DNA from: a virus
Taxonomy: Duplodnaviria; Caudoviricetes
Length of the DNA: 64,000 nt
Strand: one strand, 5' to 3'
Virus record (IMG/VR): IMGVR_UViG_3300028581_000010
Of the stretch, positions 40,521 through 49,820 are shown one piece after another (position 1 is the first letter of the stretch; each line of letters opens with the position of its first letter). Below the pieces are notes generated by a model that saw only the letters and a list, made by a program, of their open reading frames with translations, made no database searches and was not told where the DNA came from. The translations under genes were made by a program, and so were the position numbers.

Positions 40521-41148
40521 TGTTGTTTGTAATCATCTCCAGATACTCGATGGTGGGCGCAAGAATATTACGCAGATACGTAATGTCTTCCTGAGTCACC
40601 TCCGTGCAATCTATCTTAGTTATTCCCTTGCCAGGTGTTAGTCCTGTGGGAAGATACGGGCGTACGCGAAAAATAGCTCCGTTTCCTGTATATTTGTGCA
40701 TGAGCACAGCAGCCGGACAGTAACGCACCCAGGCAAGGTTATACATGGCTTTCGCAGCAAAGCTGGCTATTGCTCGGTCGAATACATCGTTGTAATAACG
40801 ATCACCAGCTTCCGCCGCGGCATCTCTACGGTCTCCTATGAGTTTCAGCTGTGCGTCTATGCGCTCAACTTGCTCTGCTTGAGAAGGTAGAAACAAGGCC
40901 TGTGCGGACATAGTCGCGGTGTGTAACTGCCCTGACAACGTGACGCATACAAGTAGCTCCAAGCCTGCTTGCGCGGCATATTGAGCCTTAGCGGACAGTG
41001 TGTACTTCGAGGACAGATAGTTCTCAGCGTTGACACCCGCCACACCCATACTCTTCATGGGTACAACCATCTGATGTGGTATGAAATTATTAGCTTTGAC
41101 AAGCTTCTTAACTAAAGGAGTCTCTGCGTAGTATAGTAGGCTGTTCAT
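40507..41148 (-). CDS. hypothetical protein
   Basis: The start is taken at MNSLLYY. The upstream part of the track ORF overlaps a terminator and a tRNA-like sequence. Confidence 0.6.
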   Translation of the reverse strand: MNSLLYYAETPLVKKLVKANNFIPHQMVVPMKSMGVAGVNAENYLSSKYTLSAKAQYAAQAGLELLVCVTLSGQLHTATMSAQALFLPSQAEQVERIDAQLKLIGDRRDAAAEAGDRYYNDVFDRAIASFAAKAMYNLAWVRYCPAAVLMHKYTGNGAIFRVRPYLPTGLTPGKGITKIDCTEVTQEDITYLRNILAPTIEYLEMITNNNGKL

Positions 41149-41175
41149 AAAAGAAAACCCACCATTGCGGTGGGT
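41149..41175 (-). terminator. intrinsic terminator closing the tRNA cluster
   Basis: ACCCACC-GCAAT-GGTGGGT followed by TTTCTTTT. Confidence 0.75.
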
Positions 41176-41185
41176 GTTGTTGAAA

Positions 41186-41257
41186 TGGAGGCGTCCGTGG
41201 CTTGCGAGCACACAACTCCAACCGCAAAGTTGGTATTTTTCCTTAAACTATCGCGCC
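41186..41257 (-). pseudogene. degenerate tRNA-like sequence ending in CCA (isotype unclear)
   Basis: GGCGCGA..TAGTTTAAGGAAAAATA..CCAAC-TTTGCG-GTTGG..GACGCC-T-CCA. Only 4 bp of the acceptor stem pair, the anticodon loop is 6 nt and the T-arm is broken. Confidence 0.4.
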
Positions 41258-41317
41258 ATGTTGAGATTAATTTGGTTCAAGCTTTACAGAGAGTCGAACT
41301 CCTGTTAAATTGTTGAA

Positions 41318-41710
41318 ATGGACACATTACAACAAAAAATAACGCTCTTGCGTAAGGCAGGTAAGTCTTATAATGCAATAAGCGCGGAGCTAGGCTGCAG
41401 TAAGGGGACAGTATCCTATCATGTCGGCAAAGATGTTAAGCCTAAGCAGTACCGACGGATGCAGGAGCGTAGGGTATCGAACATAACAAAAGTAAAGCAA
41501 GCGCATGGAGGGAAATGTAGTGTTTGCGGCTACGCGCGTTGTCTAGCTGCCTTAGATTTCCACCACATAGATCCTTCTGTCAAAAAACATGAAGTGAGCT
41601 ACTCTCGGTATAGCGTCGAAAGGATGGCTACCGAGGCAGCTAAATGCGTACTGTTGTGCTCCAACTGTCACAGAGAGCTACACGCTGGGTTTATAGCATT
41701 ACCCAAATAA
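41318..41710 (+). CDS. HTH + HNH endonuclease inserted antisense in the tRNA cluster
   Basis: KSYNAISAELGCSKGTVSYH, CSVCGY..LDFHHIDP and CVLLCSNCHRELH. Confidence 0.9.
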   Translation: MDTLQQKITLLRKAGKSYNAISAELGCSKGTVSYHVGKDVKPKQYRRMQERRVSNITKVKQAHGGKCSVCGYARCLAALDFHHIDPSVKKHEVSYSRYSVERMATEAAKCVLLCSNCHRELHAGFIALPK

Positions 41711-41713
41711 GGT

Positions 41714-41786
41714 TGGTGTCGGGGCGTGGAATCGAACCACGAAAAGCGAGCTTATGAAACTCGCTGGGGTGCCAACCCTCCCCGAC
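41714..41786 (-). tRNA. tRNA with CAU anticodon (elongator Met or Ile2), reduced D-arm
   Basis: Acceptor GTCGGGG/CCCCGAC-A-CCA, anticodon loop TT-CAT-AA and T-arm CGTGG-TTCGATT-CCACG. Confidence 0.85.
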
Positions 41787-41792
41787 ATAAAT

Positions 41793-41868
41793 TGGCTGTT
41801 CGTCTTGGACTCGAACCAAGAACCTTCGTCTTAACAGGACGAGACTCTGCCAATTGAGTTAACGAACA
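41793..41868 (-). tRNA. tRNA-Asn(GUU)
   Basis: Canonical 76-nt cloverleaf, loop CT-GTT-AA, G73 and encoded CCA. Confidence 0.95.
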
Positions 41869-41871
41869 GTG

Positions 41872-41991
41872 TTTACGGCTCAGGTCGTTAAGTACTTGCG
41901 TTAGGTGCGGTTTAAGCCCTCTGCTTTGGGCGCGCGCCCGTCCGAGAGCTGTTACGCTGGCCTCCGCTTTCCTCCCCTCAATGACCGTAAA
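41872..41991 (-). ncRNA. unassigned 120-nt rod-like structured RNA
   Basis: Nested helices TTTACGG/CCGTAAA, TCA/TGA, AGG/CCT, GCGG/CCGC, AGGCC/GGCTT and CTC/GAG. Confidence 0.55.
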
Positions 41992-42004
41992 GTTTTTGAA
42001 AGTC

Positions 42005-43051
42005 TTAGATGGGTCTAACGCCGGACAACTCTTCGAAGAGTTTGACGTCGGATCTTGGCATCGTGGGAAGCACGTCGGCCAGTTTATTGAAGTCGTTCGG
42101 ATCAAGTTCCATACCAAAGGCTTCCTCGTATGTATCCTTGCCAACCTTGCACAGGTCGTCGAACTTGTATTTATTGCCGCTCATCTCGATGTAGTTCAGC
42201 TCGGAAGCTGTCTTCTCGATAGAGAGCGTGAAGATTTTATCAACAGGGTCGCCTAGCAGCGATGCCACCTTGACGTTGTCGTAAGCTCCCTCCATGTTCT
42301 CGACATGGTAGAGCACCTCAGCAAGCTTCATAACCTCATCCATGCTGGTCATGTTGGACAGATCAGCGCGAATGTCGTTATACAGCTTCACGTTGGCTTG
42401 TTTCTTAAGCTTCGTGGATCTACGCCAAATCTCTGCGTCTAGCCCGCCGAGGTCAGGGTAAAACATGCCCGCATACTTACACACCAAGTCAGGCAGGTCA
42501 TCCACGTTGAGATCCTCTGCCGCCTTAACCATGTTTTTACAGGTGTCGACGCGGGTCTCAAAAGGGAAGTTTCTGATGTTACTGACAAAGTCTTCTGCTG
42601 CTTTCTCCAGGTCGGAGGCGGTCTTAACCACGTACAAGTCAAAGGATTGGTCTCCAACCTTGAAGTTGCACATTGTTTTGGGTTCGTAATCTGCTGCTGT
42701 TTTCTGGTTGCGCTCGGCGCTGTAGGCCTCCAGGTCTTCGGTAATTCCGAAGATGTCTGCGGCCTCTTTTATACGATTTTCGAGCTTGCAAACGTAGGCT
42801 TCTCCGTATATCTTCTTAATATCCGCCTGCTTGTCCAGAAAGTAGGCGTTAGAAACAAATACTCTAGATGGACTGTTTAATGGATAGATACGACGCTCTG
42901 AATCCGCAAAGGCCTCTTTTGGGAGCCCGCCGAGGGTCAGCATGTCGTCCACTTCTGCAGTCTTTACATACTCCGGAAGCTCTGCGTCCGCAAGGAACGA
43001 GTACAGCTGCTTGCTGGAATAGTCTGTTTGTTGGTCAAATGATAGTCGCAT
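42005..43051 (-). CDS. hypothetical protein (possible virion protein)
   Basis: Starts at MRLSFDQ, 7 nt after a TGTG-TATAAT element at 43068-43059. Confidence 0.7.
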   Translation of the reverse strand: MRLSFDQQTDYSSKQLYSFLADAELPEYVKTAEVDDMLTLGGLPKEAFADSERRIYPLNSPSRVFVSNAYFLDKQADIKKIYGEAYVCKLENRIKEAADIFGITEDLEAYSAERNQKTAADYEPKTMCNFKVGDQSFDLYVVKTASDLEKAAEDFVSNIRNFPFETRVDTCKNMVKAAEDLNVDDLPDLVCKYAGMFYPDLGGLDAEIWRRSTKLKKQANVKLYNDIRADLSNMTSMDEVMKLAEVLYHVENMEGAYDNVKVASLLGDPVDKIFTLSIEKTASELNYIEMSGNKYKFDDLCKVGKDTYEEAFGMELDPNDFNKLADVLPTMPRSDVKLFEELSGVRPI

Positions 43052-43067
43052 ATCCATAATTATACAC

Positions 43068-44357
43068 ATGAGTCCTAACGTCTTCAACTCCAAAATCAAC
43101 CTTCCGAGCGTAGTTTCCAAGCTAGGTTTCTCTACCTCAGACTACGAATTTATCCGTATGCCTGTCTTCGGGTGGTTCGCCAAGTCCAAAAACTCCGACT
43201 TCATAGGCAATATCTTCAACTTCTTCGAGCCCGAGCAGTGGCCCAGGCTGTTCAGAATCATCAGCAAGGACTTCTCCGACTGCTACGACTTCAAGCTGCC
43301 CTACTCAGAGTATGCCGAGAGAAAGCTCTACAAGGAGCAGCTGACGCTCATGGAGTACCAGTCTGCCTGGCTGCTATCCAAGCACGAGGCCCGGACGCAT
43401 AGAATACGCCACAAGGGCGACGTCTGGTACGTGGAGGACGTCCTCAAGGATGTAGGCCTTCCTGCTCTACTGGAGAACGAGATAGGCTACCTGAGCGACA
43501 CGGTCATAAAGACCTTTCCTAAGCTGGACCTTACTACCAAGCAGCGCTACCAGAAGGTTATGGTTGTGCCCACGTTCTGCACGCCCAAGCATATAGCGTC
43601 TCTGGAGGTCTGCCGCATCAAGTCCATGGACGAGAGGGAGCTGGTCATAGAGAACGCCGAGAAGGGCTGGTACGGTAAGCACAACGTCGAAATCGTCAAG
43701 AATATGGACGAGCTCAAGATCAAGGTGGGTAACACCTGGGATTACAAGTGTGATTACTGGAACACCAAGCCTATAGAGATCTCGGATTCCATTGAAACAC
43801 ACCAACTTATAAAGATCTGGAGCGAAGCCAACCATACAGCCTTCACAAGAAGTCCGATCGATCTTTTAGTGGGCAAGGAAGGCACGGGCGATATAAAGCA
43901 CCATGTCGCACTCCTCAGCCATGCTCAAATACAGGAGCTAGAAAAAAAGACCGACCAGAAGTTGCTGGACTTCTGGGTGAAGTCCAAGGAGCAGCAGTTT
44001 GTTGTACACGACAATACGTTCATCAAGAGAGGAACAGCGTATTACATCATCAAAAAGAACAAGGATGAGGAGCAAATCTCCAACTTCTGCCTGGATATAG
44101 ACAAGATCAAGAAAAAGACGGATGCGGATGGCGAGGAGACATTCTACTGGTGCGGCAACATTCTGCACAACCAGGACGTTATTCCGTTCGAGATGAGCGA
44201 TCGCTACTTCACGTCGTGCTATCTCTTCGCCAAGGGCATGCGCAAGCAGTTCATGTCACTAGGCATAGGCATCCCGTTCATCAACGAGAAGTACATTAGG
44301 CAGCTGCTCAGTCTTATACAGCTGACGTGCTTCAACGTCAAGATAGAGAACGATTAG
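43068..44357 (+). CDS. hypothetical protein (weak primase/DUF927-like resemblance)
   Basis: 429-aa ORF with good coding character. The family call is tentative. Confidence 0.7.
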   Translation: MSPNVFNSKINLPSVVSKLGFSTSDYEFIRMPVFGWFAKSKNSDFIGNIFNFFEPEQWPRLFRIISKDFSDCYDFKLPYSEYAERKLYKEQLTLMEYQSAWLLSKHEARTHRIRHKGDVWYVEDVLKDVGLPALLENEIGYLSDTVIKTFPKLDLTTKQRYQKVMVVPTFCTPKHIASLEVCRIKSMDERELVIENAEKGWYGKHNVEIVKNMDELKIKVGNTWDYKCDYWNTKPIEISDSIETHQLIKIWSEANHTAFTRSPIDLLVGKEGTGDIKHHVALLSHAQIQELEKKTDQKLLDFWVKSKEQQFVVHDNTFIKRGTAYYIIKKNKDEEQISNFCLDIDKIKKKTDADGEETFYWCGNILHNQDVIPFEMSDRYFTSCYLFAKGMRKQFMSLGIGIPFINEKYIRQLLSLIQLTCFNVKIEND

Positions 44358-44438
44358 GCGCAGCAGGACTCGAACCTGCACGTCCTGATGGACAAGGGAT
44401 TTTAAGTCCCTTGCGTCTGCCAATTTCGCCATGCGCCC
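44355..44438 (-). tRNA. tRNA-Leu(UAA)
   Basis: GGGCGCA/TGCGCCT-A, loop CT-TAA-AA, long variable arm. No encoded CCA. Confidence 0.95.
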
Positions 44439-44447
44439 GAGTTATTG

Positions 44448-44954
44448 CTAGCCTGGAGCTACCCACCAGTAAGGTGTGTTATTGATCTTTGCCCATTTCG
44501 CAAAGCGCCACTTCTCACCGATGTAGTAGTTTCTGTAGGCCTCGACTACGTCATCGGCGTTTTTGTACTGGGCTGGCATAGCCTGATGGAATGGCGTTAG
44601 CTCGCCTTCCGGAAGCATATGAATCATTTTCCGCAGGTGGTCAATACCAGCCTCACAGAAATGCGCCCTGTCGTATCTGGCGGTATACTCCCAGCATAGA
44701 CCGAGTGCGTGCTCCGAGGCCCACTTGAAGTTAGCCTGGTTAGTACCCACCCATAGCGTGCAAGGATGATGAGGATAGCTCTCCTTGAGAGGCGCTCCTT
44801 TAGCTGTCAGCGGCATCTGCGCCGGAGTGGCTCCGTACCGTATTACGGCCGAGCCGAGCTGCTGGTATAGCTCGACACACATCTTGACCACGTGCTTATC
44901 ACAGTGATAGTGCGCGGCCAGAATAGGGTCTTTGTCTAAGACGAATATGTTCAA
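44448..44954 (-). CDS. denV: pyrimidine-dimer DNA glycosylase (DenV/endonuclease V-like)
   Basis: TTG start gives (M)NIFVLDKDP..AA..HCDKHVVKM..E..Q, HHPCTLWV, and YR.YY..EK. Confidence 0.82.
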   Translation of the reverse strand: MNIFVLDKDPILAAHYHCDKHVVKMCVELYQQLGSAVIRYGATPAQMPLTAKGAPLKESYPHHPCTLWVGTNQANFKWASEHALGLCWEYTARYDRAHFCEAGIDHLRKMIHMLPEGELTPFHQAMPAQYKNADDVVEAYRNYYIGEKWRFAKWAKINNTPYWWVAPG

Positions 44955-45295
44955 CGCGGTGAGTATCCCTTGCAGCGAGCACACTGATCCATACGCAGCC
45001 CTCCATCCAGCACGCTCCTCTGTTCACCAACGAAGCCGCAATGAGGGCATACAGGACCTAGTGGTCCTACATCATTGCGACAATCCATGCAGAGTTCTGC
45101 TACGTCAAGTATCATTTTAGCGTTATAGACGGTGTCGCGGACGGTACCATCCTCAAGAACATCGTGGCGAGTAAACGTATACTCGGGAAATCGGTGAGCG
45201 ATCTCCACCATAGCTTCAAAGTTTGACGTTCTGCCGCAGGAGAGCGCATGCTCTATATGTTTTTCTAAGTTTATTGGGTCGATAATTATGTTCAT
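44951..45295 (-). CDS. hypothetical Zn-ribbon protein
   Basis: Three CxxC pairs. Begins 5 nt after tRNA-Ser. Confidence 0.55.
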   Translation of the reverse strand: MNIIIDPINLEKHIEHALSCGRTSNFEAMVEIAHRFPEYTFTRHDVLEDGTVRDTVYNAKMILDVAELCMDCRNDVGPLGPVCPHCGFVGEQRSVLDGGLRMDQCARCKGYSPR

Positions 45296-45300
45296 AGTTT

Positions 45301-45390
45301 TGGCGGAGACAAAGAGCGTTGAACTCTTAGTAGTCTTTAGCTACGGCGCTTTAGCAAAGCGCTACGAAAAACCGATATTCGTGTCGTCTC
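45301..45390 (-). tRNA. tRNA-Ser(GCU)
   Basis: GGAGACG/TGTCTCC-G-CCA, loop TT-GCT-AA and a long variable arm. Confidence 0.92.
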
Positions 45391-45413
45391 CAAGTTATTT
45401 GATACTGGAAAAA

Positions 45414-45488
45414 TACCCCAATCGAGGCTCGAACTCGAAGTCTCCAGGTTGAAAACCTAGCGTGTTAGACCAGTTACACTATTGGGGC
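45414..45488 (-). tRNA. tRNA-Glu(UUC)
   Basis: GCCCCAA/TTGGGGT-A and loop TT-TTC-AA. No encoded CCA. Confidence 0.92.
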
Positions 45489-45496
45489 AAAAGCTT

Positions 45497-45613
45497 CCTA
45501 CCGATTACTACGAAGGCGCCGATCAAGTTTGGACCTCTCTCGACATTGCCTTCCTGTTATTGTATTGGGCGAGCTACACATACTCAGTGTAACGGCCACA
45601 GGCGGATGGTAGG
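45497..45613 (-). ncRNA. unassigned ~117-nt structured RNA
   Basis: Closing stem CCTACC/GGTAGG, CGCC/GGCG and hairpin GTTACAC/GTGTAGC. Confidence 0.45.
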
Positions 45614-45640
45614 TTTACAACCGTGAACCAAAGTGTAGTA

Positions 45641-45762
45641 TGAGCGCGGCAGGATTTGAACCTGCATGACTAGCGACTGTTAGTGAATCCCAATATATAG
45701 CTAATACTATATACCCGTCTTTGTCTTATTATTTAGCGTCTTTACATTCCGCCACGCCGCTC
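45641..45762 (-). ncRNA. tRNA-like RNA with Leu-type D- and T-arms but an expanded non-canonical anticodon region
   Basis: TGGCGGAATGTAAAGACGC D-arm, GCAGG-TTCAAAT-CCTGC T-arm, GAGCG/CGCTC-A acceptor and a ~65-nt insert. Confidence 0.7.
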
Positions 45763-45786
45763 AAACTAACCACAGCAAAAATGTTT

Positions 45787-45892
45787 TGGCGGGGCTTCCG
45801 GTAGGGGCTTGGTAATCTCTAGCAACTTAAACCAATGATCCCCGCTTTACCGATGCTACGACCCGAAGCACTCGTGCTGGCCATGCCACGCC
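45787..45892 (-). ncRNA. unassigned ~106-nt rod-like RNA ending in CCA
   Basis: GGCG/CGCC, GCTTC/GAAGC, CGGTA/TACCG, GGGG/CCCC and TGGT/ACCA nested helices. Confidence 0.5.
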
Positions 45893-45909
45893 ACCAAATA
45901 ACTAAAAAG

Positions 45910-46430
45910 TTGTTGACCAAGATTAAAAGGTCCTGTTTACCCACGACAGGACAGGCTTCGGCTCCTTTCGGATAATGGCGCTATTTCCGCCTTACGCCTT
46001 GTCAGCAGGAGCCTAGGCTCCTGAGATTCTTACAAACATAAACTGATGAAACACCTCGATTTGACATACCTATACACCCGGAAGCGCCATAAGAGATTAC
46101 TCCGACCACTGGTGGCCGGTTGTATAACTCACACCTGCGTACAGGTGTACTTTGCAACTGGCGCAGTGTTACCTACGCCAGCTCTTTAAGCTTAGCTATG
46201 GACTTTAAATGAGCCTTCCTTACTTATACCTTGCAACCATAACGGATATGAGCCTTACTACCTTGCGAACTTGAGCCTTCAGCCTTGAGACATAGCACTC
46301 TGATGAGTGATATACCATAGGTTTGATACACGCTGAGAAAGCATGTTAGGTTTACAATTCCATGTAAGTTTCATATTGTCGATTATGAGTTCGCCAGATG
46401 AAAGCCACAAGGGCCTCCTCTAGTCTTTTC
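45910..46430 (-). ncRNA. candidate large (~500 nt) multi-hairpin ncRNA
   Basis: No ORF of 60 aa or more. It has at least five clean hairpins, an 8-bp long-range helix and repeated AAGG motifs. Boundaries are approximate. Confidence 0.55.
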
Positions 46431-46433
46431 TCT

Positions 46434-46605
46434 AACTGATTACGGATATGTCAAATCGAACTGTTTCAAATTGTGCAGGGCTATGTCCCTGCTGGGAGGT
46501 CTGTCGGCCTCATCCAAGGGGTTCTCTCCCCCTGTCAACTCTGGTATTAGCAGGTCTTGAGTTTTCCCTGTTTTAAACTGAGAACGACTACATGCCTGAT
46601 CAGTT
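46434..46605 (-). ncRNA. 6S-RNA-like 172-nt rod with a central bubble
   Basis: AACTGAT/ATCAGTT, ATGT/ACAT, AGTCG/CGATT, CAGGG/CCCTG, then a bubble, then CCTGCT/AGCAGG and an apical AGGGG/CCCCT. Confidence 0.55.
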
Positions 46606-46613
46606 TGAAAGTC

Positions 46614-46701
46614 TGCGCGAGGCGGGACTCGAACCCGCATGCTACTGTTATTTCGCGTCCGCCTCTAAAACGGAATTGTCTACCAATTTCAACACCCGCG
46701 C
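46614..46701 (-). tRNA. tRNA-Leu(UAG)
   Basis: GCGCGGG/CTCGCGC-A, loop TT-TAG-AG and a long variable arm. No encoded CCA. Confidence 0.92.
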
Positions 46702-47385
46702 GTTTAAACTTATACCATAACTCCTACACCATTTTCTAACTGCGTTATCAGAAACTCCGAAGGTTTTCCCTATCTGCACAAAAGATGCCGTACGTATGAG
46801 CCGTTGCAATTCGTCTTTCTCCGGGCGCACAACTTTGCGAAAGCTTGGTTTTGGTTTAGTTCTCCAGTGCGGATCTCCTTTTATTTTCTCCTTTTTAGTC
46901 CTTGTCGGCTTGGGAGGCATTTTCTGTTCGCGTCTGTCAACCAGCCTACGCCTAGTCTCCATAGCATGACAGTTAGGGCAAAGAAGCTGTAAGTTCTCTA
47001 GTCGGTTATCGAAGTGGTCAGAATTTATATGATCCAACTCCAAAATAGCGGGAGCACCTTGCCAGTCAGTTAAGCCGCATAGTTCGCATTCTTGCTTTTT
47101 GAACCCTTCCTTAATAAGCCTCTTTTTAATGTAGTTGCTATTGCATGGTGAGTTGGCCACCAGATATTTCTCTATAGGCTGCTTAGGTGGGAAAGTTTTA
47201 CCCTTATTCCAAGCTTTGCCAGTAAAGTGAGTGGTCGGCAAGTCATAAGCTTTAGCAACTTTTGCAATATAGCTTTGGGCGCCTGTCCGAGAAGATACTT
47301 CTAATTTTCGACATACCTCTGCCCACGAGCGGCACTGTTCGACAATAGGCCCCAATAATTGCTTTGTGTATTTGGTTCTTAGCAT
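46648..47385 (-). CDS. HNH endonuclease within the tRNA/ncRNA island
   Basis: CELCG..LELDHINSDHFDNRLENLQLLCPNCH and a C-terminal HTH (IGKTFGVSDNAVRKW). Confidence 0.9.
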   Translation of the reverse strand: MLRTKYTKQLLGPIVEQCRSWAEVCRKLEVSSRTGAQSYIAKVAKAYDLPTTHFTGKAWNKGKTFPPKQPIEKYLVANSPCNSNYIKKRLIKEGFKKQECELCGLTDWQGAPAILELDHINSDHFDNRLENLQLLCPNCHAMETRRRLVDRREQKMPPKPTRTKKEKIKGDPHWRTKPKPSFRKVVRPEKDELQRLIRTASFVQIGKTFGVSDNAVRKWCRSYGISLNARVLKLVDNSVLEADAK

Positions 47386-47393
47386 ACGCATAT

Positions 47394-47423
47394 ATCTTAA
47401 GGCAAGTGCGTATGCCAAGTCAA
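47394..47423 (-). promoter_or_regulatory. sigma70-like promoter TTGACT-N18-TAAGAT for the HNH gene
   Basis: The ATG at 47385 lies 8 nt after the -10. Confidence 0.5.
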
Positions 47424-47437
47424 CTAGATATGTAAAG

Positions 47438-47613
47438 TTTTCCTACGAGTGGGATATGATCCCACACTCCGCGCATGTACCGGTGAACGCGGGTGCTATT
47501 TATCGGACTCGACCACTTCGGAAGCGATCCGTCGTGCGCCCAATGCCTCGCCCTGTGTGTCTAGAAACACAGCAGTTGCCCATATTAATTTTGGGTTACA
47601 CTATCGTAGAAAA
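47438..47613 (-). ncRNA. unassigned ~175-nt multi-stem junction RNA
   Basis: Closing stem TTTTCTACGA/TCGTAG(G)AAAA enclosing about five hairpins, e.g. GTGGGATCATATCCCAC and CCGCG/CGCGG. Confidence 0.5.
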
Positions 47614-47621
47614 GTTAAAGA

Positions 47622-47655
47622 GATGGGGACGCCGTGGTTTTGCGGCGCCCCCATC
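47622..47655 (-). terminator. strong GC hairpin (terminator or processing stem)
   Basis: GATGGGGGCGCCG-CAAAACCA-CGGCGTCCCCATC followed by TCTTTAACTTTT. Confidence 0.55.
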
Positions 47656-47851
47656 CTGATGTTACCAGGCCAACTTTTTGTGGACAGGATGCCAAGCCTG
47701 CTTTACGAGATTCATCGAACAAGGTGATTTAGGCCTGTTCGATGCACTCACCACCCCCGCAGAAAAACGGCCCACACCCTCAAGCGCCACTCAACCTCCA
47801 GGCCTAGGAAGGAGGTATGGTTGTGACTCTGTTTTGTAATGTGGGACCAAA

Positions 47852-48271
47852 TGGTGGAGGTAGCGGGAGTCGAACCCGCGTGTTCAATACTTCTCTAACA
47901 CCTCTACGTGCGTAGTTTGATATTATTTTCGACTGTGGTCTGCTATCAAACAAACGGTGCCACAGCTTAGGCAGACCCGTCTGCCAGGGTGCGGATTACC
48001 GCCATCTTTTACCACGATTGACGCCGAGCGCTTTTCTTCACTCAGCCAGGTTACGTGACATCCTGAGTTCGATGACTGTTACAGTCCGCTTACGCGGCGA
48101 GCAGTTCGCGATCAACGCTCCCGAAGGAGGCGATCATCGCGTCAGCTTCTGCAACCGTCATTGCTTGATCCATAGGATTAGCATTTAGTTTTTGTTAGCT
48201 TTCAAGGTGCCCCGCTAACGAACCCACACGCAGTGCTTCAATACATATTGAGTCGAAGCCAGTATACCCCC
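47852..48271 (-). ncRNA. ssrA: tmRNA (420 nt), tag ANPMDQAMTVAEADAMIASFGSVDRELLAA*
   Basis: 5' GGGGGTA..GGCTTCGAC and 3' GCGGGTTCGACTCCCGC-TACCTCC-A-CCA with G3.U70. Resume codon GCT at 48182 follows AAAAACTAAAT, and the tag ORF ends in AA*. Confidence 0.95.
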
Positions 48272-48322
48272 GAAAATGTGTGCGTGGTGCACTGTTTTAA
48301 TTGTACACCACGCACGAAAACG

Positions 48323-48868
48323 CTACAACTCCAAAAGTGGCGTGGTCGCATTGACCGTCTCGAGGATCGAGTCGATCAGGTGTGGCTCGCGCCGGAAGTT
48401 TGTGACTTTTTGATCCCGGACTTGCGGATCAAAGTAGCGACGAACCTTCACGGTTGCAGACCCTCCAGTCGATGTGGGCACGGTCTTGTCTTTCAGGTTC
48501 CTGTCGTTCAGGAGACCCCAAGCGAGCTGCTCATGGTTGGCAAGATCCCGCCGGCGCAACACCCAAGCGGCGATCGTCTTCTCGACTGTTCGTGATGGCT
48601 CGATTTCAATCGTAACCTTTGTCTCCAGATTTGTCTTTTGGATACGCAAGGACAGCTCTTCGATCTTTGAGAGCTTGTCATGGATGGCTTGGAGCCAGCC
48701 TTCCACGGTTTTGCGCTGAGTCACCTCATCTGTGTAAACAGGTGCCTCGTTGTCCAGATCAGCCGCATGCGCGTTGATCTTTGCTTTGAGCTCCTCGATG
48801 TCTGCAAGGAGCAACTTCCGCTGCTTCATTGCCTGAATTAACGTCAGGCTCGCTTTGTTCTCGGTCAT
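48323..48868 (-). CDS. DIP1984/DUF6847-like coiled-coil protein
   Basis: L.QA...R..L...IEEL..KI...LS.RIQKTN..T..ID..L...N pattern. Confidence 0.55.
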   Translation of the reverse strand: MTENKASLTLIQAMKQRKLLLADIEELKAKINAHAADLDNEAPVYTDEVTQRKTVEGWLQAIHDKLSKIEELSLRIQKTNLETKVTIEIEPSRTVEKTIAAWVLRRRDLANHEQLAWGLLNDRNLKDKTVPTSTGGSATVKVRRYFDPQVRDQKVTNFRREPHLIDSILETVNATTPLLEL

Positions 48869-49144
48869 AAACCTTTAGTGGGTTTGTCTTAAAGGGTGTG
48901 GAGGGAATTCCCGGAAAAGGGCCGGGTGCCAGCCTTACGGTACTGGCCCTCCACATTTTACGCACTGCAACAGAAGAGTCTCTCCTACAGTACTCGCCTG
49001 AGCCTAGGGTCAAATTTTACTCATCCGGCTCCAGCTAGAAAGGGTGGACGCTGAATCTGGGGCGACAAGGGTCAGGAATCAGCCGGCACTTGCCGACAGT
49101 GAACAACGTCCATATGTGTGAACGCGAAAGCGCTCTATCAATGT

Positions 49145-49171: not shown

Positions 49172-49618
49172 TCACTGTGGAAGCTGTTTTTGTACCTCTT
49201 TGGAAAGGAGCTGGCCTGGTATATTTCCACCGGACATTTCCTTGGCGAGCTTCATCACATCGCCCATCTGTTTGCGTGAAGTAGCCTCGAGCTTCGATAT
49301 TGCCTGAGAGACGATTGTCTCGATCTCTCCCTCGGTTGGGACCGGAGGCATGTAGGCAGCGAGCATAACCTTCTCCATTCCCTCCTTGGCGGCCCGTGCC
49401 GTTTCTCCGACTTTTACATAGGAGTCGATGGAGTCCTGTCTCTTCTTGCACTCCTTGGCGACCACCTGTAAAAACTCGGTCTGGTCGAGCTCGTGGCGCA
49501 GTTCGATAGCCTTGTTTACCATCGCGCTCTTGAGCATGCGCAATACGTCGCGCTTCATACGGTCGCCAGTCATCATGGCAACCTTGATATCCTCGTCGAT
49601 TTTTTGTGAGGGTAGCAT
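49172..49618 (-). CDS. yqeY: GatB/YqeY domain protein
   Basis: D.K.AM..GD....VLRMLKSA..KE.KKR.DSI..Y..E...L..YMP..Q..G.VMK. Confidence 0.88.
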   Translation of the reverse strand: MLPSQKIDEDIKVAMMTGDRMKRDVLRMLKSAMVNKAIELRHELDQTEFLQVVAKECKKRQDSIDSYVKVGETARAAKEGMEKVMLAAYMPPVPTEGEIETIVSQAISKLEATSRKQMGDVMKLAKEMSGGNIPGQLLSKEVQKQLPQ

Positions 49619-49622
49619 ATTG

Positions 49623-49820
49623 TTAGCAGGGTTGAACAATCAGCTGGTTGTGGTTGAATTCAGGGCAAGTTGCTTCCGCAGCAGTTTGCTCCAGTGGTTT
49701 GTCCGAAGGCTGCCCAGCTAGCCTTCTCGTCTCTGAGCGCTCGCACTCGATCATACACCCACATTGGGGGCATTCGCCGCGCATCTTCTGTCGTGTGTTT
49801 CCGTTTTTTAAGATTTGCAT
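49623..49820 (-). CDS. small Zn-ribbon protein
   Basis: ECPQCGCMIEC...TCPE. Confidence 0.55.
   Translation of the reverse strand: MQILKNGNTRQKMRGECPQCGCMIECERSETRRLAGQPSDKPLEQTAAEATCPEFNHNQLIVQPC

What the first reader, a model, noticed from the sequence alone, without database searches (positions are those of the whole stretch)
45301..48271. Dense 3-kb ncRNA island: tRNAs and tmRNA interleaved with at least six unexplained folded RNAs
Seen: apart from one HNH gene there is no credible ORF. The space is tiled almost end to end by discrete elements, each closed by its own terminal stem and separated by short A/U-rich linkers. Known: large phages place tRNAs, tmRNA and large RNAs such as GOLLD/ROOL in such arrays and process them via tRNA maturation. 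Inference: a polycistronic RNA arsenal targeting translation, ribosome rescue and RNA polymerase.
Basis: partly seen in the sequence, partly recalled or inferred. Interest (0 to 1): 0.8.

Follow-up and report, generated by a model that had tools for sequence, protein, structure and literature searches.

The report
Phage tRNA island hiding partner RNA
This gene-poor stretch of a lake-water jumbo phage is mostly an ordinary tRNA/tmRNA island broken up by a selfish nuclease gene, but one of its "mystery RNAs" belongs to a widespread, uncatalogued RNA family that always travels with a small protein gene of unknown function, which points to an undescribed protein-RNA pair.

Summary
Everything lies on the minus strand.

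**Confirmed**
- tmRNA, tRNA-Leu(UAG) and tRNA-Glu.
- One HNH gene, and no other credible ORF.

**Added here**
- A near-threshold tRNA-Ser(GCU) at 45391-45301.
- A strong terminator (47656-47621) and a promoter-like site for HNH. The array is therefore unlikely to be one transcript.
- A tRNA-Leu-derived relic at 45762-45641.

**Main result**
- 46291-46207 is a "rail" of AAGG units spaced 7-8 nt apart.
- It matches (E 9e-16) the 5' domain of an RNA family that lies beside DIP1984/DUF6847-like genes. It is present in 69-78 of 83 viral loci, always on the gene's strand.
- All 11 closer homologs in genome bins also have it.
- The family's 3' helix covaries strongly.
- No Rfam family matches, and I found no paper.
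- In this window the partner gene (48868-48323) sits 2 kb upstream, and the canonical 3' domain is not detectable.

**Other elements**
- The 6S-like element has one homolog. It is an indel cassette in a related phage.
- The remaining elements have only modest folding scores.
- The 6S, GOLLD and ROOL readings are not supported.

This scan has found DIP1984-plus-partner-RNA pairs before on other DNA. The mechanism, protein protomers docking on the rail, is inferred and not shown.

The parts
48323..48868 (-). DIP1984/DUF6847-like gene (181 aa), the presumed protein partner of the rail RNA
   Evidence: Pfam DUF6847 E 7e-4, below cut-off. NCBIfam DIP1984_fam E 1e-6, below cut-off. AF2 pLDDT 95. Best solved fold is 3KDQ: Foldseek E 5e-5, and VIA Z 12.7 over 150 residues. 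91 homologs were found.
48280..48315 (-). 10-bp hairpin followed by ACAUUUUC. It fills the gap between the gene's stop codon and the tmRNA 5' end
   Evidence: Read from the sequence. The scan's loop limit excluded it.
47852..48271 (-). tmRNA with a 30-residue tag ending in LLAA
   Evidence: ARAGORN. Rfam RF00023, 93 bits.
   Evidence: MFE z -3.0 including the terminator. No homolog and no Rfam hit.
47621..47656 (-). Intrinsic-terminator-like hairpin: 14 pairs (10 G-C) plus a U-rich tail
   Evidence: z -6.8.
47438..47613 (-). Unexplained spacer (the '175-nt junction RNA'). It lies after the terminator and before the HNH promoter
   Evidence: z -2.85 on the minus strand and -2.81 on the plus strand. 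No homolog was found. A tRNA-like fragment appears only at ARAGORN's 80% threshold. Similarity to tRNA-Leu is not above shuffles.
47394..47423 (-). Sigma-70-like promoter: TTGACT, 18-nt spacer, TAAGAT
46648..47391 (-). HNH endonuclease gene. The ATG is at 47391 or 47385; the longest frame starts at TTG 47418. Its last 54 nt are also the 5' part of tRNA-Leu(UAG)
   Evidence: Pfam HNH E 4e-7 and phrog_10822 E 6e-45. Public gene calls give 245 or 247 aa. The overlap was read.
46614..46701 (-). tRNA-Leu(UAG)
   Evidence: ARAGORN. Rfam 44.5 bits.
46434..46605 (-). Its conserved core is 46568-46517
   Evidence: 85% identity over 53 nt to L127 13738-13790 (E 4e-9). nhmmer E 1e-6 over about 110 nt. 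It is absent at the orthologous junction of L126. No 6S hit. z -2.7.
46296..46309 (-). Small hairpin (CACUC/GAGUG) just upstream of the rail. It sits where family members have a hairpin or a tRNA
46207..46291 (-). AAGG rail: eight to nine AAG(G) units spaced 7-8 nt apart. This is the 5' domain of the DIP1984-associated RNA family
   Evidence: Profile of 45 homologs: E 8.8e-16, 54 bits, the only hit in the 64-kb window. It has the highest AAGG density in the window. blastn and nhmmer match 11 loci. It folds less than shuffles, z +1.9.
46040..46206 (-). Post-rail region with three hairpins. It may be a diverged or expanded 3' domain, but it does not match the family's 3'-domain model
   Evidence: R1 covariance model scores 6 bits or less here with filters off. 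z -2.5. The tentative CCAUAG/CUUAUGG closing helix was read by eye only.
45919..45952 (-). 7-bp hairpin plus CUUUUAAUCUU. A possible 3' end of the rail transcript
   Evidence: Read from the sequence. Not listed because the loop has 9 nt.
45641..45762 (-). tRNA-Leu-derived element. The D arm, T arm and acceptor are kept, and the anticodon arm is replaced by an AT-rich insert
   Evidence: Its 3' part aligns to both tRNA-Leu genes (0-1 of 500 shuffles score as high). The Rfam tRNA model gives only 16 bits, E 1.8.
45413..45489 (-). tRNA-Glu(UUC)
45301..45391 (-). Probable tRNA-Ser(GCU): a type-II cloverleaf with G73 and an encoded CCA
   Evidence: ARAGORN finds it at 97% of its default threshold and draws a full cloverleaf. 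The Rfam tRNA model does not report it.

Best explanation
The stretch is the tRNA/tmRNA island of an uncultivated freshwater jumbo phage of about 215 kb, read on the minus strand. It holds a tmRNA with its own terminator and an HNH homing-type endonuclease gene with its own promoter. The end of that gene overlaps tRNA-Leu(UAG). Further along are a tRNA-Leu-derived relic, tRNA-Glu and a near-threshold tRNA-Ser. Embedded among these is the 'rail' domain (46291-46207) of an uncatalogued RNA family that accompanies DIP1984/DUF6847-like genes. Here that gene is 48868-48323. It is separated from its RNA by about 2 kb of inserted tmRNA, HNH and tRNA. Proposed mechanism (inferred, not shown): the RNA is transcribed on the gene's strand. 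It is often released from a preceding tRNA or tRNA-like module by tRNA-processing enzymes. Its largely unpaired row of AAG(G) units, spaced 7-8 nt apart, serves as a docking track for several protomers of the DIP1984-like protein. The result would be a protein-RNA particle of unknown cellular target. The remaining spacers are a mix of a tmRNA trailer, tRNA debris, one small cassette shared with a related phage, and sequence without evidence of function.
For: Island content. Rail membership: a profile of homologs hits only 46289-46211(-) in the window, at E 8.8e-16. Gene linkage: at E<=1e-3 the 5' domain is found in 69 of 83 IMG/VR loci that carry a homolog. All 69 are on the gene's strand and 65 lie within 700 nt. 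Adding the 3'-domain model R1 gives about 78 of 83. Reverse test: of 33 IMG/VR matches to a 3'-domain pattern, the 14 that also have a rail all have the gene, one is cut off by the locus end, and 18 are chance matches with neither. Independent collection: all 11 genome-bin homologs with >=37% identity have both RNA domains. RNA structure: the long-range helix is 92-96% paired. It has 115 double-change cells against 30+-8 in shuffles, and pairing collapses when the partners are slid. G-U pairs number 32 against 12 A-C, which fits an RNA on the gene's strand. A hairpin of unrelated sequence is present at the same place in 80% of members. The rail folds less than shuffles in the window (z +1.9) and on average in 51 homologs (mean z +0.5). 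Unit spacing is 7 nt (45 times) or 8 nt (41 times), or multiples of these. A tRNA ends 4-57 nt upstream of the rail in 23 of 59 distinct members, and 14 more have a T-arm-like motif. More distant DIP1984 homologs (24-30% identity) carry strict 7-nt CAAGRCU rails in two blocks. No Rfam family matches.
Against: No binding, expression or processing data exist, and no RNA-seq run holds this phage. The window's copy lacks the family's canonical 3' domain and lies 2 kb from the gene, so it could be decaying. The nearest relatives (L015, L030) have only a degenerate rail. Relatives L124-L129 show no DUF6847 homolog by tblastn. Predicted unpaired probability of the rail across homologs is only slightly higher than that of the rest of the RNA (0.45 against 0.40). 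The protein fold (a helical bundle with a small sheet) is not a known RNA-binding fold, and the fold searches give no function.
Confidence: 0.6

Rival explanations
1. In this particular phage the rail is a decaying remnant. Insertion of the tmRNA, HNH and tRNA-Leu separated it from its gene, the 3' domain has been lost, and it no longer functions. The family is real, but this copy is a relic.
For: The canonical 3' domain is not detectable anywhere in the window. The gene-to-rail distance is 2,032 nt against a family median of 195 nt. Relatives L015 and L030 have degenerate rails, and L124-L129 have no detectable gene.
Against: The rail itself is very well preserved (54 bits, E 9e-16), better than in L015 and L030. 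The protein gene is full-length and keeps the invariant residues of the family alignment. The region is 100% identical in seven independent assemblies, although that only shows recent common origin.
Confidence: 0.2
2. The rail RNA is a sponge for a host factor rather than for the phage protein. Candidates are 30S subunits, through the Shine-Dalgarno-like AAGG units, or a host RNA-binding regulator, in the way CsrB titrates CsrA.
For: AAGG is complementary to the 3' end of 16S rRNA (established knowledge). There are many repeated, mostly unpaired units.
Against: The base after GG is mostly U or C, with A in only 52 of 252 units. The GGA core needed by CsrA is therefore not conserved. The tight, strand-specific linkage to one protein gene across very different phages is better explained by a co-encoded partner.
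Confidence: 0.12
3. The repeats act at the DNA level, for example as iterons of an origin or as binding sites of a DNA-binding protein, or the element is merely a cis-regulatory untranslated region of the DIP1984-like mRNA.
For: The element can lie either downstream (59 loci) or upstream (10 loci) of the gene, as operators and UTRs can.
Against: The orientation relative to the gene is fixed (69 of 69). Compensatory changes and a G-U excess occur in a helix that spans a 25-35-nt loop. tRNAs frequently lie between the gene and the element. In this window a terminator, a promoter, an ORF and a tRNA lie between them. These argue for a separate RNA, not a UTR or a duplex DNA site.
Confidence: 0.05
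4. One reading: six or more distinct functional ncRNAs are made as one precursor and cut out by tRNA-processing enzymes. Among them are a 6S-like RNA polymerase mimic and a GOLLD/ROOL-like large RNA.
For: Coding density is low and folding z-scores are moderately negative for several segments. tRNA-adjacent RNAs are a real pattern in this family.
Against: A terminator and a promoter lie inside the array. There are no Rfam matches. Most segments have no homologs in 140 related loci. z-scores are similar on the opposite strand for two of the segments.
Confidence: 0.08

Closest known systems
DIP1984 family / Pfam DUF6847 (crystal structure 3KDQ, Corynebacterium diphtheriae)
   Same: The upstream protein has this fold (Foldseek E 5e-5; VIA Z 12.7 over 150 of 152 residues). 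It also gives weak profile matches.
   Different: The profile scores are below the curated cut-offs. The family has no known function, and no paper in the searchable library mentions DIP1984 or DUF6847, so the name explains nothing.
HutP on hut mRNA and TRAP on the trp leader (Bacillus): oligomeric proteins that read rows of NAG triplets
   Same: A row of short purine units at a fixed spacing on unpaired RNA. HutP sites also have a 7-nt period and come in two blocks, as the rails do (the HutP/TRAP facts are from established knowledge).
   Different: The protein fold is unrelated, and the unit here is AAG(G). There are about nine units followed by a conserved structured 3' domain. The element is a separate RNA, not an attenuator in an operon leader. 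Binding is untested.
CsrB/RsmZ-type sponge RNAs
   Same: Many repeats of a short G-rich motif in a non-coding RNA.
   Different: CsrA needs GGA, usually in hairpin loops. Here GG is followed mostly by U or C, the units are not in loops, and the RNA is linked to its own protein gene.
Ro60 (Rsr) with Y RNA / YrlA
   Same: A protein gene with an adjacent non-coding RNA that often carries a tRNA-like module, found in bacteria and phages.
   Different: There is no Ro60 homology. The YrlA model gives only a weak sub-threshold hit on a tRNA in L015. Y RNAs have no periodic rail.
tRNA regions of T4 and T5 (small stable RNAs co-transcribed with tRNAs; SegB and F-Tfl homing endonucleases inside the tRNA cluster)
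   Same: A tRNA cluster that also holds unexplained small RNAs and a homing-type endonuclease gene (from established knowledge). The same HNH family sits in tRNA arrays of L063 and L087.
   Different: There is no sequence relation to T4 or T5. Here the HNH reading frame runs 54 nt into a tRNA gene.
6S RNA, GOLLD, ROOL
   Same: Only the genomic niche: large phage, near tRNAs.
   Different: No match to any of these Rfam models even at E 10.

Membership tests
tmRNA (RF00023) | tRNA-like ends, a tag reading frame and pseudoknots that match the covariance model above the gathering score | tested here: met
   93 bits against a gathering score of 47. ARAGORN reports a tag peptide ending in LLAA.
tRNA (RF00005) | Cloverleaf that scores above the gathering score or the ARAGORN default threshold | tested here: met
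   tRNA-Leu(UAG) scores 44.5 bits and tRNA-Glu 61.8 bits.
tRNA (RF00005), candidate tRNA-Ser(GCU) 45391-45301 | Cloverleaf that scores above threshold | tested here: inconclusive
   ARAGORN finds it only at 97% of its default threshold, with a complete type-II cloverleaf, G73 and CCA. The Rfam model gives no hit at E 10.
tRNA (RF00005), element 45762-45641 | An anticodon stem-loop within a cloverleaf | tested here: not met
   16 bits, E 1.8. Only the T arm and acceptor align. Its 3' part is homologous to tRNA-Leu, so it is tRNA-derived but not a tRNA.
AAGG-rail RNA of DIP1984-like genes (defined here) | 5' domain: about nine AAG(G) units spaced 7-8 nt apart that match the family profile | tested here: met
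   E 8.8e-16, 54 bits, the single hit in the window.
AAGG-rail RNA of DIP1984-like genes (defined here) | 3' domain: a variable hairpin, GAAYGNCC, a covarying long-range helix around a pyrimidine-rich loop, and the invariant AGGCUUCC | tested here: not met
   Model R1 gives no hit in the window and 6 bits or less with filters off. Only a loose resemblance (CCAUAG...CUUAUGG, then GCUUCC) can be read by eye.
AAGG-rail RNA of DIP1984-like genes (defined here) | Lies beside a DIP1984/DUF6847-like gene and on the same strand | tested here: met
   Same strand, but 2,032 nt downstream against a family median of 195 nt.
DIP1984 / DUF6847 protein family | Profile score above the curated cut-off | tested here: not met
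   Pfam 19.9 bits against 27. NCBIfam 28.6 bits against 70.
DIP1984 / DUF6847 protein family | Same fold as the solved member 3KDQ over its whole length | tested here: met
   VIA Z 12.7 with 150 aligned residues. Foldseek probability 1.00. Many homologs carry a precomputed PF20935 hit.
6S RNA / GOLLD / ROOL | Match to the Rfam covariance model | tested here: not met
   No hit at E<=10 in 41000-49000.
CsrB/Rsm sponge RNAs | Repeated (A)NGGA motifs, mainly in hairpin loops | tested here: not met
   A follows GG in only 52 of 252 units. The rail is predicted to be unpaired rather than a series of hairpins. No Rfam hit.
HNH homing-type endonuclease | HNH catalytic motif | tested here: met
   Pfam HNH 30.5 bits against 21.4. 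phrog_10822 E 6e-45. Mobility itself was not tested.

The most novel reading that the evidence does not exclude
DIP1984-like proteins and their rail RNAs form a previously unrecognised class of ribonucleoprotein. Several protomers would line up on a 7-8-nt-period track, and the RNA would be made through tRNA-linked processing. The class would be widespread in uncultivated phages and, in variant form, in bacteria. This window would show that the RNA can work in trans, 2 kb from the gene, across a terminator and a promoter.
Probability: 0.4. Interest if true: 0.85.

Novelty: categorically new. Interest (0 to 1): 0.68.

Why it matters
Most of the island is ordinary phage biology: tRNAs, a tmRNA, a homing nuclease and tRNA debris. 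The rail is different. It ties this phage to a conserved RNA family with clear covariation. That family is absent from Rfam and from the searchable literature, and it is almost always found with a protein family whose function has been unknown since its structure was solved in 2009. If the pair is a particle, it gives DUF6847/DIP1984 a first testable function, namely RNA binding on a periodic track. It would also add a new kind of phage-encoded RNP located next to translation RNAs. For annotation, the result shows that 'empty' stretches in phage tRNA islands can be sorted into real RNA genes and relics by comparing distant loci.

Tried and rejected
- blastn of the whole stretch against deposited phage genomes: no match.
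- tblastn of two family proteins against deposited phages: no match.
- Single-protein scans of IMG/VR with the two flanking genes: nothing. An alignment query was needed.
- Seven contigs carrying the identical protein are 99.96-100% identical over the island, so they give no variation.
- RNAalifold on the raw MAFFT alignment predicted no pairs. The helix had to be read by eye and then counted.
- The terminal hairpin CUUCC...GGGAG has no covariation.
- A pattern scan for the core of the 6S-like element found only the contig already known.
- The metagenome scan for the L015/L030-type RNA returned only near-copies of those two.
- nhmmer with the L015/L030 non-coding region found nothing in the window.
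- Fold searches gave only DIP1984. Weak TasH, LidA and seryl-tRNA-synthetase-arm rows are generic helical hairpins.
- Literature searches for DIP1984, DUF6847, PF20935 and AAGG repeats found nothing relevant.
- No whole genome is held for this window.


Full report
**What is there**

All features lie on the minus strand. ARAGORN and Rfam agree on three RNA genes inside the finding:
- tmRNA at 48271-47852 (93 bits)
- tRNA-Leu(UAG) at 46701-46614
- tRNA-Glu(UUC) at 45489-45413

Three more tRNAs lie further downstream. The only ORF of 100 aa or more inside the finding is an HNH endonuclease. Eight smaller ORFs have no Pfam or PHROG match.

The surrounding genes are phage genes: a UDG-PolA fusion, SbcC-like, He_PIG and others. 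They have no close cultured relative. The same DNA occurs, 99.96-100% identical, in seven assemblies from lake-water samples, the longest 215 kb. The observation of an ORF-poor RNA island is therefore correct.

**Transcription units**

- A 14-bp, G+C-rich hairpin with a U-rich tail lies at 47656-47621, about 195 nt after the tmRNA.
- A TTGACT-18-TAAGAT promoter-like site lies at 47423-47394, directly before the HNH start codon.
- A 10-bp hairpin with ACAUUUUC fills the gap between the upstream gene's stop and the tmRNA 5' end.
- Another hairpin with a U-tract lies at 45952-45919.

These are consensus matches, not mapped RNA ends. Even so, they argue against a single polycistronic precursor.

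**tRNA-related extras**

- At 97% of its default threshold, ARAGORN finds a complete type-II cloverleaf at 45391-45301. It has anticodon GCU, discriminator G73 and an encoded CCA. The Rfam model does not report it. I call it a probable, divergent tRNA-Ser.
- The element at 45762-45641 keeps a Leu-type D arm, T arm and acceptor. Its 3' part aligns to both tRNA-Leu genes far better than to shuffles. It has no anticodon arm and scores 16 bits. It is a tRNA-Leu derivative, not a tRNA.
- The HNH frame runs 54 nt into tRNA-Leu(UAG). I looked for a stranded tRNA-Leu 5' half upstream of HNH and found nothing above chance.

**The rail**

The first comparative signal came from blastn and nhmmer of the spacers against loci that encode homologs of the upstream gene. 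Only window positions about 46290-46212 matched, in 11 loci, and always just downstream of that gene.

The tract is a row of AAGG units and is the densest such tract in the 64-kb window. A profile built from 45 homologs finds exactly one place in the window, 46289-46211(-), at E 8.8e-16.

**The RNA family**

In other phages the element is about 170 nt long. From 5' to 3' it consists of:
1. A hairpin or a tRNA.
2. About nine AAG(G) units spaced 7 or 8 nt apart (45 and 41 instances; longer gaps are multiples of these).
3. A hairpin of variable sequence, present in 80% of members.
4. GAAYGNCC.
5. A long-range helix around a 25-35-nt pyrimidine-rich loop.
6. The invariant AGGCUUCC.

The evidence for the long-range helix is strong:
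- It is 96% paired in 33 seed sequences, with six pairs that change on both sides.
- In 65 distinct sequences aligned by the model it is 92-95% paired.
- It has 115 double-change cells against 30+-8 in shuffles, and pairing collapses when the partners are slid.
- G-U pairs outnumber A-C by 32 to 12, as expected for an RNA read on the gene's strand.

A proposed terminal hairpin has no covariation. The rail folds less than shuffles: z +1.9 in the window, and mean +0.5 in 51 homologs. No Rfam family matches any member.

**Linkage to the protein gene**

The upstream gene (48868-48323) is a remote DIP1984/DUF6847 member.
- Its profile scores are below the curated cut-offs.
- Its confident model (pLDDT 95) matches 3KDQ over its whole length, and nothing else above background.

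The linkage holds in three tests:
- Of 83 distant IMG/VR loci with a homolog, 69 have the 5' domain at E<=1e-3. All 69 are on the gene's strand and 65 lie within 700 nt. In 59 the RNA is downstream (median 195 nt) and in 10 it is upstream. Adding 3'-domain hits raises the count to about 78.
- In the reverse direction, a 3'-domain pattern found 33 places in IMG/VR. Fourteen have a rail, and all 14 have the gene. One is cut by the locus end. Eighteen have neither, about what chance predicts.
- In genome bins, all 11 homologs with >=37% identity have both RNA domains.

Homologs with 24-30% identity (Synergistaceae, Desulfovibrionaceae and Acidobacteriota bins) have a related rail instead. It has a strict 7-nt CAAGRCU unit in two blocks split by a hairpin. 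This agrees with earlier notes of this scan on other DNA.

In 23 of 59 distinct members a tRNA ends 4-57 nt before the rail. It often has an odd anticodon (AUU, AAU, ACU, UUA). Fourteen more members have a T-arm-like motif at that place.

**How this window differs**

- The gene and the rail are 2,032 nt apart, with the tmRNA, a terminator, HNH and tRNA-Leu between them.
- The canonical 3' domain is not found.
- True relatives of this phage are L015 and L030. They share two further genes and also have a tmRNA right after the gene. That tmRNA is followed by a roughly 750-nt non-coding region conserved between the two, which contains a degenerate rail.
- Relatives L124-L129 have a tmRNA with a similar long tag, but no detectable DIP1984-like gene.
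- This lineage is therefore remodelling the system. The window's copy may be an expanded variant or a relic.

**Other spacers**

- The core of the '6S-like rod' (46568-46517) is 85% identical to a stretch of L127. That stretch is an indel of about 100 nt relative to L126.
- In this element a hairpin stem changes compensatorily (CAGG/CCUG against GGGG/CCCC). Its conserved loop (AACUC) could pair with a conserved GAGUU downstream. With only two sequences this is a lead, not a result.
- No further copy was found.
- The other segments (47851-47657, 47613-47438, 46433-46292, 46039-45770 and 45640-45490) have no homolog in about 140 related loci. Their z-scores range from +0.7 to -3.0, and two fold about equally well on the opposite strand.

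**Mechanism**

Shown:
- A conserved structured RNA exists.
- It has fixed strand and close proximity to one protein family.
- It has a periodic, poorly folding track.
- It often has a tRNA in front of it.

Inferred:
- The protein binds the track, one protomer per unit.
- tRNA-processing enzymes set the RNA's 5' end.
- The particle acts during infection near the translation apparatus.

No expression data could be obtained.

**Verdict**

The finding is partly right. The island is real and mostly ordinary. One of its unexplained pieces belongs to an uncatalogued RNA family that partners DIP1984-like proteins, which this scan has met before on other DNA. The 6S, GOLLD/ROOL and 'RNA arsenal' readings are not supported.

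Noticed in passing
window 46648-46701: The HNH reading frame ends inside tRNA-Leu(UAG). Its last 54 nt are the tRNA's acceptor strand, D arm and anticodon arm, and the stop codon lies in the variable region.
   Followed up: partly
window 48090-48182; L124 13334-13768; L126 12815-13249; L128 13156-13589: The unusually long tmRNA tag (30-31 residues) is conserved as a peptide among related jumbo phages (...AEADA...G..D.ELLAA). This suggests selection on more than the C-terminal degron.
   Followed up: no
L012 6816-6891, L025 6608-6680, L018 1497-1572, L134 3570-3645 and others: tRNAs directly upstream of the rail RNA often have anticodons that normal decoding does not use (AUU, AAU, ACU, UUA), or malformed anticodon loops. 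They may be processing handles or RNA modules rather than decoders.
   Followed up: partly
L015 7560-8260 and L030 6030-6810: A roughly 750-nt non-coding region is conserved between two related phages (64% identity). It has blocks of near identity, and hairpins whose sequences differ but still pair. It has no Rfam match. It lies between tRNA-Met and a convergent gene and contains a degenerate rail.
   Followed up: partly
L015 7450-7548: A 99-nt tRNA (Rfam 31.4 bits) whose anticodon arm is replaced by a long extended stem. It resembles the tRNA-Leu-derived element of the window.
   Followed up: no
L127 13737-13835 against L126 13326/13327: The homolog of the window's 46568-46517 core is a clean indel of about 100 nt between two otherwise collinear phages. 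This could be a small mobile cassette.
   Followed up: partly
L144, L145, L147, L148, L149, L151 (150-300 nt after the DIP1984-like gene): Distant DIP1984 homologs in Synergistaceae, Acidobacteriota and other genome bins are followed by strict 7-nt CAAGRCU repeats. The repeats form two blocks of four to five units, separated by a G+C-rich hairpin.
   Followed up: partly
window 49172-49639: A YqeY-like (GatB C-terminal-like) gene (Pfam E 2e-31) lies just upstream of the DIP1984-like gene, so another tRNA-related protein sits beside the RNA island.
   Followed up: no
L063 2791-2952; L087 6898-7784: Homologs of the window's HNH protein also sit inside tRNA arrays of two unrelated phage contigs, so this HNH lineage seems to favour tRNA clusters.
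   Followed up: no
   Followed up: partly
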